A DNA stretch of 64,000 nt from Callorhinchus milii (taxonomy: Eukaryota), in NCBI RefSeq assembly GCF_018977255.1, contig NW_024704742.1:96474001-96538000 (forward strand), written 5' to 3'. Made by a program: the position numbers and the translations under genes. Position 1 is the first letter of the stretch. Every line of letters begins with the position of its first letter. Under the pieces are notes generated by a model that did not search any database, was not told the origin of the DNA, and was given only the letters and a program-made list of their open reading frames with translations. Shown here piece by piece: positions 40,101-43,100 of this stretch.

Positions 40101-43100
40101 TCACTCAATCCATAACTGTTTGTGGGACACTGCTGTGCGTAAATGGTTGCATCGCTTCGCCCACAAAATAATAATAATAAATAATAATAATAATCCTTGC
40201 ATTTGATATAGCGCTTTTCACGTCGGGAGGACGTCCCAAAGCGCTTCACAGAATATACTGTAAAGTGAATTGACTGTATATTTGTGGGCGAACGCGGCAG
40301 CCAAAATATCAAATATACTGTTGATTCCCTTTACAGTATATTCTGTGAAGCGTTTTGAGACATCTCAAAGACGTAATAAGGCACTATATATCAAATGCAA
40401 GGATTATTATTATTATATTCAGAAATTGTGATTATATTTAAAATATACTCTAGTAAACTACAAATGGAACTAAGCATTTACAGGGAAAAACATCTTTACT
40501 TTCTGCCGTTAAATGGTACATTAGGGAGCTGTGACCAGTGGATGATTCTGAAAAAAATGAATTTGCTACAGTTTAGTTGCAACTAAACATTTGTTGTTGT
40601 ATATAGGTCAACAACAACTTGCCCGGGCGGCATCTCAGAGCACTTAACAATGGTGGAGCCCAAGGCTGAGCTAGGGGGAGGGGCAAGGTGACCGTAGGCA
40701 CGGTCGAAAACGAAGGTCTTCAGGTGCGAACTGAAGATGGGGAAGGAGGGGGCGAGACGAAGGGGTTGAGGGAGATCAGTCTAACATACCCATGTTCCCA
40801 TGGTGCAGAATGAAAGTGAGTTTTATTAAAGCTGGATAAACCATACCAGTTTTCAAGTCATGCTTCGACTAACTGTATATAAACCATACACACATTTGCA
40901 CACTAAATGTTATATCATTCAGTAGAACACCGAAAATAAAAAGTTCCGCTCATGAAATACTGCTTTTGTTTGTATCATGAATGACTAGAATGGCCCTCTT
41001 GCACAGTGAAGTAGGAGGTGAAATTCTGAATGACTCCTTTATTTTGACATAATTTTGATGAGTTTTAAAGGTTAGCAATGGTCACTATAAGCACATAACC
41101 ATTGATATAGTGTTAAAACTAACCCAATCATCAGGTTTAATTGGTGTTCATTATCTACTCCAGTGCTGCTATGCAAATTATTTTGATTGCTTTACAACCT
41201 TTCCTAAACTTTCCAGTGTATGTCTACATACCTGGGATGTGAAGTCGTGCTGCTGTAGTTGTCTTCCTTCCCGGAGGTCCCAGGATCTCACGGTGTTGTC
41301 TAAACCTCCCGTCCAAAGCTTGGTGCCATCATTTGATATGTCAATACAGCTGGCCCCATCTGTGTGACCCTGGAATTGCCTGATATCATCAAGAAAATAG
41401 CAGAGTGTCACTTTCTTTTATTTTGTGCCAATAATGGTGTTCTATAACCTCTTGTACTACACCCAAACCAATTTTCATATATTAAAAGTATTATCTAAAA
41501 AGATAAATAAGTCATTCATTAAAGCAGGCCTGAACATCTAAGAATGCTACATTTAAAGCATGGAAATAATTTTTATGACCGGGCACAGACTCCTTAACAA
41601 TGTTTAACATTTCAAATTAAAGTAAAAGCTTGAAAACATAAATTCACCTTTTATGAAAACATTTTAAAAATACACACCAGGTATAATTTCGCCCACAAAT
41701 ATACAGTCAATTCACTTTACAGTATATTCTGTGAAGCGCTTTGAAACGTTTAGAAGACGTGATAAGGCGCCATATCAAATGCAGGGATTATTATTATTAT
41801 ATATAGAATTTTTTGGAGTGGTAAAAATAATATTTTTCAACCTAAAAGTCAATTTATACAAGTATACATATATTATGCAAATTGTGAAAACTGCGTTGGC
41901 CTTAATTATGTAATTGGTTAATTTTGAAAACATTTTGCTTAATGTACTTTTAAGAATGGGGTTTATTATGCGAGTTATGTAAATGCATGTACACAGAGTT
42001 GACCTTAATTATGTAATTAACCAATTACATAATTAAGGGCTTCTCTGTGTACATGCCTTTACACAACTCACATAATAAACCCCATTCTTAAAAGTACATT
42101 AAGCAAAATGTTTTCAAAAATTTTCGAATGTTAATCATCTCTTACCGGACTAATGTCTGATTGTGCAGATCCCAGACAGCAATATTACCATCGCTGCAGC
42201 ACGAGAAACAGACCTTGGAGTCGGGGCTTATAGCCAAAGCATAGCAGGCAGGAGCGGAGGACGTCAACTCCGCCTTTATACGTGGAGTTGGGGCTGCCAG
42301 GTCCCAAATGGACAACGTACTGGCTTCACCACCAACTATCAGGGTCCGGCCATCAGGGAGCAGCTTGCACGATCGGATGTAATTGTCTCGGTTCTGTTGA
42401 GACAGAAATTGTTGGGAGATTATTTACACTGCAGGTACTGGAAACAAACACACACTTAATCTGCACTTACTTTAACTATTTCTACTCGAAACGAACAGCT
42501 TGACAGAAATGGAAATGTAATGCAGGATTTACATTTTTCATAAAACCACATAAATTTGACTGACAAATTCAGTGCAGTTGACAGTTACTGTTAACATTCA
42601 TTTAAACTTATAATAATAATCCTTGCATTTGATATAGCACTTTTCACGTCTTCTAGACGTCCCAAAGCGCTTCACAGAATATACTGTAAAGTGAATTGAC
42701 CGTATATTTGTGGGCGAACGTGGCAGCCAATTGCGCACTGCAGTGTCCCACAAAGTCATGGATTGAAAATGACCAATTTATTATTGTTTTGTTTTTTTGG
42801 AGGGATAATTATTAGGCGTGTGGAGTAAGGAAACTTGCCCAAGGTTTCGCCCTGCCTGGAATTGAACTCACTTGCAAAGCGAGTGCTCTAACCACTGAGC
42901 TGCAGGACTCTTGGGAAACTTGGGAGTTTCATGCTTATGAATAATGTGTGGCCACATAGCCAGCCATTTCAGAACTCATGATTAAGGGAATTTCACTTCT
43001 TTGAAATGTAAAGTGGAAATAATACAAGCTACAACAGAACATCACTTTTAAAAATGTAGTCTACAACTCTGTACGTTACACCTACCACCCTCTCAATATG

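What the first reader, a model, noticed from the sequence alone, without database searches (positions are those of the whole stretch)
41899..42119. 97-bp-arm fold-back hairpin 26 nt downstream of a TLE4 splice donor
Seen: 41922-42018 and 42023-42119 are reverse complements around a 4-nt loop. The outer ~48 bp are perfect and about 7 mismatches lie in the inner half. A third copy of the centre (ccttaattatgtaattggtta, 41900-41920) sits just outside the left arm, the pattern expected from a template-switch inverted duplication rather than a MITE; no TSD is visible. In the pre-mRNA the stem starts 26 nt after the donor of exon 42146-42393. Inference: a ~100-bp intronic dsRNA could be an ADAR substrate, a nascent miRNA/siRNA precursor, a cruciform, or a modulator of donor use.
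Basis: partly seen in the sequence, partly recalled or inferred. Interest (0 to 1): 0.7.

Follow-up and report, generated by a model that had tools for sequence, protein, structure and literature searches.

The report
Copying-error hairpin in a TLE4 intron
A real, single-copy 97-base-pair hairpin in an intron of the elephant-shark TLE4 gene looks like the slowly decaying scar of one DNA-copying error at an older small hairpin, and nothing found shows that it regulates the gene or yields a small RNA.

Summary
The hairpin is real: 97-bp arms, 4-nt loop, 6 mismatches, outer 49 bp perfect, 26 nt past a TLE4 donor. Contigs of run X1 reproduce both outer junctions and the centre without a difference; X3 the centre and right junction. 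No repeat family or target-site duplication was seen, so a MITE is unlikely. A related species (X17) matches only the 16-bp core hairpin and the right arm. The third core copy carries the loop in reverse, so the simplest history is one inter-strand template switch that inserted about 100 nt at an older 16-bp-arm hairpin. Both arms have since mutated with no compensatory change. No Rfam family passes; no published intronic miRNA of this species fits the intron; editing and splicing could not be tested. Verdict: new member of a known kind, probably neutral, perhaps edited incidentally. The scan noted similar copying scars elsewhere in this genome, not this one. More notable side finding: the adjacent exon has a near-identical second genomic copy with other introns, suggesting gene conversion between TLE4 and a TLE1-like paralogue.

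The parts
41900..41915 (.). First copy of the 16-bp core; read as the left arm of the older small hairpin
   Evidence: Exact reverse complement of 42023-42038; direct repeat of 42003-42018 at 103-nt spacing (family D1)
41916..41919 (.). 4-nt spacer of the older hairpin; it is the reverse complement of the present loop
   Evidence: rc(41916-41919) = 42019-42022
41920..41923 (.). Outer switch junction: 4-nt microhomology with the reverse complement of about 42118-42123, with a one-letter slip in a T run
   Evidence: junction alignment; the role as switch point is inferred
41922..42018 (.). Left arm: the inserted inverted copy (3' arm of the RNA stem)
   Evidence: no matching piece in organism B beyond 41999 (record 12)
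42019..42022 (.). 4-nt loop of the long hairpin
42023..42119 (.). Right arm: the older template sequence (5' arm of the RNA stem); starts with the 16-bp core
   Evidence: aligns to organism B in collinear order with the exon (record 12: 41999-42168)
42066..42071 (-). Donor-like hexamer inside the right arm, made by the change at 42070; weak and ordinary
   Evidence: U1-pairing energy -5.5 against -8.2 kcal/mol for the true donor; 65 of 731 GT sites of the gene span score as well
41385..42145 (-). Host intron of TLE4, 761 nt
   Evidence: exon ends from tblastn and sequence
42146..42393 (-). TLE4 coding exon (WD40 region), 248 nt, donor at 42145
   Evidence: (81 of 82 residues as human TLE1 chain 1gxr_A)

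Best explanation
The hairpin is the scar of one replication template-switch event in a TLE4 intron. Before it, the site held a small hairpin (16-bp arms, 4-nt spacer). A polymerase left its template at this hairpin, copied the opposite strand over the spacer, the core and about 80 nt of neighbouring intron backwards, and returned; one switch used the 16-bp (or longer) inverted repeat, the other a 4-nt microhomology. The result is a net insertion of 103 nt, three copies of the core, and a reversed loop. Because the second switch point lies ahead of the first in either direction of synthesis, the switch was between strands, not a fold-back of the new strand. Since then both arms have gathered independent changes. 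In the TLE4 pre-mRNA the stem very probably folds and may be edited by ADAR as any long intronic duplex can be, then leaves with the intron; no selected function. Shown: structure, reality, three-copy anatomy, reversed loop, changes on both arms. Inferred: ancestral state, switch points, direction, neutrality, folding in vivo.
For: Anatomy: 24 of 24 match of 41900-41923 to the reversed centre, loop reversed, junction microhomology. Organism B record 12 aligns over 41999-42168 only, with 160 further letters that do not fit the left arm, and all 15 gap letters are missing letters in B, so B has no extra 4 nt in the centre. At the arm mismatches B sides with the left arm at 42057 and (after re-alignment by hand of rows 42040-42044) at 42041-42042, with the right arm at 42064 and 42039, and with neither at 42070: changes fell on both arms and none restores a Watson-Crick pair. 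Both arms agree against B at 42050, 42079, 42096. Arm divergence 6 of 97 is below the A-B divergence of 0.094 per site in 42029-42138. Few records laid at 80% likeness: 18 in X1, 15 in X3, 9 in X17. Inter-strand logic and a largest copied length of 128 nt in apes: PMC7954356; spacer inversion as mark of intermolecular switching: PMC8604942, PMC8794818. Base rate of such hairpins becoming annotated miRNAs 57 of 6,054: 10.1101/2023.04.19.537475.
Against: B's letters at the loop and its 160 loose letters were not shown. The 4 or 5 unlisted substitutions near 41999-42028 fit a reversed loop but do not discriminate (likelihood 0.10 against 0.15 for a count of 5; 0 against 0.22 for a count of 4). 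B could instead have lost the arm by deletion between the two direct copies of the core. All 6 mismatches lie in the inner 48 bp (chance 0.012; 0.027 if the double change is one event; chosen after looking), and the two transitions both give G-U pairs on the sense strand only, so the sense stem is unbroken for 62 bp; this could mean selection or later homogenisation. A 97-bp, 4-nt-spacer repeat that has lasted long enough to gather 6 differences is more stable than such repeats are often taken to be (own knowledge).
Confidence: 0.7

Rival explanations
1. Same kind of origin, other route or other order: either an intra-strand fold-back from an older perfect palindrome with an 8-nt centre (spacer plus its reverse), or a hairpin older than the A-B split that B lost by deletion between the direct core copies while A kept its arms alike by repeated template switching. 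Still no function.
For: Joining 41900-41919 to 42019-42038 gives a perfect 40-nt palindrome. A weaker, older similarity extends about 27 nt beyond the core on the left flank (79.5% over 44 nt; 13 of 2000 shuffles as good against the new left arm). The perfect outer 49 bp would suit homogenisation.
Against: The 8-nt-centre model needs 4 extra letters in B, and B's alignment has none (155 record letters over 170 window letters, 15 gap letters). B is about equally far from both arms, and the arms share three listed substitutions and two gaps against B.
Confidence: 0.13
2. The stem has been co-opted: it is hyper-edited by ADAR or binds dsRNA proteins 26 nt from the donor and so tunes splicing or retention of this TLE4 intron.
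For: Sense strand folds better than antisense (-136.3 against -130.4 kcal/mol) through two G-U pairs; 70 A in 198 nt, 50 with a 5' A or U; outer stem unbroken; same centre sequence in X1, X3 and the window. Most ADAR activity is in intron-intron duplexes (PMC7006430 passages), so editing itself is plausible.
Against: No compensatory change; four of six mismatches break pairs. The donor lies outside the stem and is equally unpaired with or without the arm. The donor-like site at 42071 is weak and already paired without the inserted arm (0.10 against 0.00 unpaired). The arm is not seen in B although the exon and donor are kept.
Confidence: 0.09
3. The hairpin is a young miRNA or endo-siRNA source transcribed with TLE4.
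For: Template-switch hairpins in sense introns are a described source of new miRNAs (81 of 99 intragenic cases). 19 sub-threshold Rfam matches, all to miRNA models.
Against: All 19 are below gathering score and reflect a long A+U stem. Stem of 97 bp with a 4-nt loop against the preferred 35-bp stem and 10-nt or longer loop. None of the 187 published intronic miRNA rows for this species lies in a 761-nt intron at the fitting offset (read by eye; small RNA from 16 tissues). Base rate 0.9%.
Confidence: 0.04
4. The hairpin is a MITE or fold-back transposon copy.
For: Long arms, almost no spacer, A+T-rich. One other locus matches 42023-42072 at 40 of 50 letters in X1 and X3.
Against: No target-site duplication; no second copy in the window; only short partial matches in whole-genome contigs; the 40-of-50 match is within reach of chance (0.008 to 17 expected, by the match rate assumed); B holds the right arm alone as ordinary intron sequence.
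Confidence: 0.03
5. Assembly or library artefact.
For: Fold-back chimeras are a known artefact (own knowledge); X3 has no contig over the left flank.
Against: Six differences between the arms; X1 reproduces all junctions and X3 the centre with 0 differences.
Confidence: 0.01

Closest known systems
Short-range template-switch mutations, four-point model (PMC7954356, passages and section 8 read; 10.1101/2023.04.19.537475, abstract and Results read)
   Same: Local inverted copy that makes a long stem in one step; net gain of length; intronic; second switch point ahead of the first, so inter-strand.
   Different: Copied length about 100-117 nt, near the top of the ape range (median 12, max 128); here one event both lengthens the stem and reverses the loop and leaves a third core copy; ancestral state only partly seen.
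Inverted-repeat spacer inversion and arm extension by intermolecular template switching (PMC8604942, PMC8794818; passages read)
   Same: Pre-existing arms longer than 9 bp, 4-nt spacer reversed.
   Different: The return switch lies about 100 nt away, so sequence is duplicated and the old arm and old spacer survive beside the new stem.
Species-specific intronic long inverted repeats (PMC5414712, passages read; the FEBS J 2009 study only as cited there)
   Same: Arm over 30 bp, mismatch under 15%, G+C over 20% (29% here), short spacer, intronic, lineage-limited.
   Different: In a cartilaginous fish; origin can be traced.
De novo miRNA genes from template switching (10.1101/2023.04.19.537475)
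   Same: Sense-strand intronic hairpin of the same origin.
   Different: Stem far longer and loop shorter than Microprocessor prefers; no read evidence; not found among annotated intronic miRNAs.
MITE / fold-back elements (recalled)
   Same: Long terminal inverted arms, A+T-rich.
   Different: No target-site duplication, no family, one arm is host sequence with an orthologue in a relative.

Membership tests
Template-switch mutation (four-point model) | Inserted segment is the reverse complement of nearby sequence | tested here: met
   41922-42022 is the reverse complement of 42023-42119 plus 41916-41919; 6 later differences
Template-switch mutation (four-point model) | Two switches explain the whole change from the ancestral allele | tested here: inconclusive
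   Two switches suffice for the modelled ancestor; B fits it in extent and gap count, but B's loop letters and left flank were not shown
Template-switch mutation (four-point model) | Direction fixed by outgroups | tested here: inconclusive
   One relative only (X17); loss in B not excluded
Long inverted repeat (Lirex criteria) | Arm over 30 bp, mismatch under 15%, G+C over 20% | tested here: met
   97 bp, 6.2%, 29%
MITE / fold-back transposon | Target-site duplication | tested here: not met
   None at the arm ends
MITE / fold-back transposon | Many dispersed copies | tested here: not met
   0 further copies in 64 kb; 18, 15 and 9 records laid at 80% in three whole runs, non-locus ones at most 50 nt among those shown (21 pieces not shown). 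No assembled genome was held
Canonical miRNA gene | About 35-bp stem with loop of 10 nt or more | tested here: not met
   97-bp stem, 4-nt loop
Canonical miRNA gene | Precise 21-23-nt reads from both arms | not testable with these tools
   No small-RNA reads could be laid; indirect: no fitting row in the published intronic list
Canonical miRNA gene | Known family match | tested here: not met
   No Rfam match at gathering score in this region
ADAR-edited intronic duplex | Long duplex on the transcribed strand | tested here: met
   Predicted only
ADAR-edited intronic duplex | A-to-G differences between RNA and DNA | not testable with these tools
   No RNA contig of the locus was laid (X5)
Structure-based splice regulator | Stem covers or changes access to a splice site, and is conserved or covaries | tested here: not met
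   Donor outside the stem, unpaired 0.52 against 0.53; no compensatory pair; arm not seen in B

The most novel reading that the evidence does not exclude
A chance template-switch hairpin has been domesticated in one chimaera lineage: its outer 62-bp sense-strand duplex is kept intact by selection, is hyper-edited or diced, and controls use of the TLE4 donor 26 nt upstream, for example by burying the derived frame-shifting donor-like site at 42071. That would be a dated case of a splicing control element born in one mutation.
Probability: 0.07. Interest if true: 0.6.

Novelty: new member of a known kind. Interest (0 to 1): 0.2.

Why it matters
As it stands it is a clean, fairly long and old example of a known mutation process: old arm, old loop, reversed loop and both junctions are all still legible. 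It adds a non-mammalian vertebrate case near the upper size limit reported for apes, and shows that a 97-bp hairpin with a 4-nt spacer can persist in an intron. It would matter more if RNA data showed editing tied to splicing or small-RNA output. The side finding of likely gene conversion between TLE4 and a TLE1-like paralogue in the neighbouring exon may deserve its own follow-up.

Tried and rejected
No whole genome was held, so copy number rests on run contigs. No RNA holder listed; the one RNA-guess run laid (X5) gave a single 40-nt partial match and did not cover even the exon, which says nothing on expression or editing. X3 has no contig over 41806-41859 and 41914-41940; a hole proves nothing, and a different left flank in that individual was neither shown nor excluded. 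No joint that skips the arm was listed in any of the 4 runs laid (4 of 24 listed). Depth arithmetic places 13 of B's missing letters in 42103-42129 and one at 42040; the last lies either in 41999-42021 or in 42022-42048, both solutions fit. The count of B's unlisted substitutions, first taken as proof of the reversed loop, turned out not to discriminate. Idea that the stem hides a cryptic donor: site weak, common and paired anyway. Idea that the hairpin drives the exon gene conversion: B lacks the arm yet its two exon copies are more alike, and in A the 5 differences lie in the exon part nearest the hairpin. Rfam e-value hits: structure-only. No tandem repeat in 41300-42800. A term search of the genome paper's supplement found nothing, but the file holds coordinates, not miRNA sequences, and the main supplementary PDF was too large to read; the intergenic and full miRNA tables were not checked beyond what part 10 showed, so a locus misfiled as intergenic is not excluded. 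Literature on TLE1/TLE4 conversion: none found (4 papers listed, none on it by title or abstract; 0 papers).

Full report
Observation. The repeat is as described, with small corrections: arms 41922-42018 and 42023-42119, loop of 4 nt, 6 mismatches, outer 49 bp perfect. The minus strand folds at -139.4 kcal/mol, z = -21.0, 0 of 200 shuffles as good. No other short-spacer repeat in the 64 kb comes close. The third copy of the centre runs 41900-41923 and matches the reversed centre at 24 of 24 letters.

Host gene. The exon 42146-42393 (minus strand) encodes a TLE WD40 segment. tblastn of proteins against the window gives 65/65 and 25/25 identity in the variable region to a Callorhinchus milii protein named TLE4 (P0017), against 47/64 and 24/26 for the paralogous P0028, and 62/65 to human TLE4. 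So the gene is TLE4 and the organism is, by this evidence, the elephant shark. The hairpin lies in a 761-nt intron, 26 nt past the donor.

Real and low in copy. I laid 4 of the 24 listed runs on 41806-42605 at 80% likeness. X1 has contigs over the left junction (41806-41951), the centre (41941-42100) and the right junction (42090-42168), all with 0 differences; their ends fall 30 nt from the points where the perfect arm begins and ends, as a de Bruijn graph of a true inverted repeat would give. X3 has the centre and the right side with 0 differences and no contig on the left flank. No joint skipping the arm was listed. Only 18, 15 and 9 records were laid in X1, X3 and X17; those from other loci that were shown are at most 50 nt with 3 to 10 differences (21 pieces were not shown). 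With no target-site duplication, a MITE is unlikely.

A relative. In organism B (X17), record 12 aligns over 41999-42168 with 15 other letters and 15 gap letters, 155 record letters over 170 window letters, so every gap is a letter missing in B; 160 further letters do not fit the left arm. B thus holds the 16-bp core hairpin and the right arm, in order with the exon, but not the long left arm. At the six arm mismatches B agrees with the left arm at 42057 and, after re-aligning rows 42040-42044 by hand, at 42041-42042; with the right arm at 42064 and 42039; with neither at 42070. Both arms agree against B at 42050, 42079 and 42096 and at two gaps. So both arms have changed since the duplication, and no change restores a Watson-Crick pair. 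Arm divergence (6 of 97) against A-B divergence (0.094 per site) puts the event well back in time, perhaps two thirds of the way to the split; the counts are small and this is inference.

Mechanism. Removing 41920-42022 leaves a hairpin with 16-bp arms (41900-41915 and 42023-42038) round the spacer 41916-41919, and the present loop is that spacer reversed. From this ancestor two switches give the present allele: one through the 16-bp inverted repeat, one through a 4-nt microhomology at 41920-41923 with a one-letter slip. In either direction of synthesis the landing point lies ahead of the leaving point, which under the four-point model requires an inter-strand switch (PMC7954356, section 8 read); spacer reversal is the described mark of such switches (PMC8604942 and PMC8794818, passages). 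The copied length of about 100-117 nt is near the top of the ape range (median 12, max 128). The weak point: B's loop letters were not shown. The model predicts 5 substitutions in 41999-42022 and B has 4 or 5 unlisted ones there, but background divergence alone gives such a count as readily. A fold-back from an 8-nt-centre palindrome would need 4 extra letters in B, which are not seen; loss of the arm in B by deletion between the direct core copies stays possible.

Function. Against: no compensatory pairs; donor outside the stem and equally unpaired with and without the arm (0.52, 0.53); no Rfam family at gathering score, 19 sub-threshold miRNA-model hits only; geometry unlike a Microprocessor substrate; none of 187 published intronic miRNA rows for this species in a 761-nt intron at the fitting offset (PMC3964593, supplement parts 10-12 read by eye; main supplementary PDF not readable); 57 of 6,054 such hairpins became annotated miRNAs in the human lineage (10.1101/2023.04.19.537475, Results read). 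For: the mismatches cluster in the inner half (0.012 to 0.027 by chance, chosen after looking), both transitions give G-U pairs on the sense strand, which folds 6 kcal/mol better than the antisense. Long duplexes are much less depleted from pre-mRNA than from mRNA, though near-perfect ones are somewhat depleted there too, and most ADAR activity falls on intron-intron duplexes (PMC7006430, passages); incidental editing is therefore plausible and would not by itself show function. A donor-like hexamer at 42071, made by the change at 42070, would add 74 nt and a stop, but it is weak (65 of 731 GT sites score as well) and paired even without the new arm. Editing, small RNAs and splicing could not be tested: X5 gave no cover.

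Comparison and novelty. It works like, and on the features tested belongs to, the template-switch class; it meets published long-inverted-repeat criteria (PMC5414712, passages). It fails the MITE and canonical miRNA tests. Earlier notes of this scan report similar copying scars elsewhere in this genome (AI notes, not tested here, not counted as support); none concerns this sequence. New member of a known kind; interest 0.2.

Side finding. The exon itself has a second genomic copy with different introns on both sides (loose ends at 42139 and 42396-42397). In A the copies differ at 5 listed places, all synonymous third positions, and share one contig over 42272-42396. In B a single contig of doubled depth (73.7 against about 40) covers 42140-42369 and carries four changes (42193, 42223, 42262, 42319) found in neither A copy. 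C. milii proteins P0008, P0019, P0025 and P0028 share the exon's peptide (83/83 shown for P0008, P0019, P0028) but differ elsewhere, and P0028 is closer to ostrich TLE1 (79%) than to human TLE4 (67%). Paralogues more alike within species than orthologues between species is the pattern of gene conversion; that the second copy is the TLE1-like gene is inferred. Searches found no paper on it.

Noticed in passing
window 42146-42393 (records X1 5-7, X3 21-23, X17 14-16): The exon has a second, intron-flanked genomic copy: 5 synonymous differences in species A, none over 230 nt in species B, with four B-specific changes shared by both B copies. This suggests ongoing gene conversion between TLE4 and a TLE1-like paralogue; no paper found. 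Possibly more interesting than the hairpin.
   Followed up: partly
window 41688-41766 and 42640-42718: Two copies of a common repeat tail lie in opposite orientation on either side of the exon, 94% complementary over 79 nt, 873 nt apart; the geometry that can favour exon loop-out or circular RNA. The family has 22 hits in the window, so such pairs are common here.
   Followed up: partly
window 42066-42071, minus strand: Donor-like hexamer created by a change in the right arm after the duplication; use would add 74 nt and a stop; weak and not unusual.
   Followed up: yes
window 41873-41899: Weaker, older similarity to 41975-42002 beyond the 16-bp core (79.5% over 44 nt with the core), hinting that the ancestral hairpin was itself the remnant of a longer, older inverted repeat.
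   Followed up: partly
window 41806-41940 in run X3: No contig over the left flank, and the right-arm contig runs through 42071-42168 unbroken, as if the left junction were absent from that run's graph; low depth or a different haplotype.
   Followed up: no
window 40233-40361 and 45285-45356: Short-spacer inverted pairs made of two repeat tails head to head (52-bp arms, 25-nt spacer; 27-bp arms, 18-nt spacer).
   Followed up: no
window 1812-1883, 11230-11301, 15490-15560, 23372-23444, 32650-32721, 59146-59217: Six tRNA-model matches, several inside dispersed repeats: probably heads of tRNA-derived SINEs.
   Followed up: no
window 22148-22232 and 23161-23245: 85-nt inverted pair, 94% complementary, 928 nt apart; not examined.
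   Followed up: no
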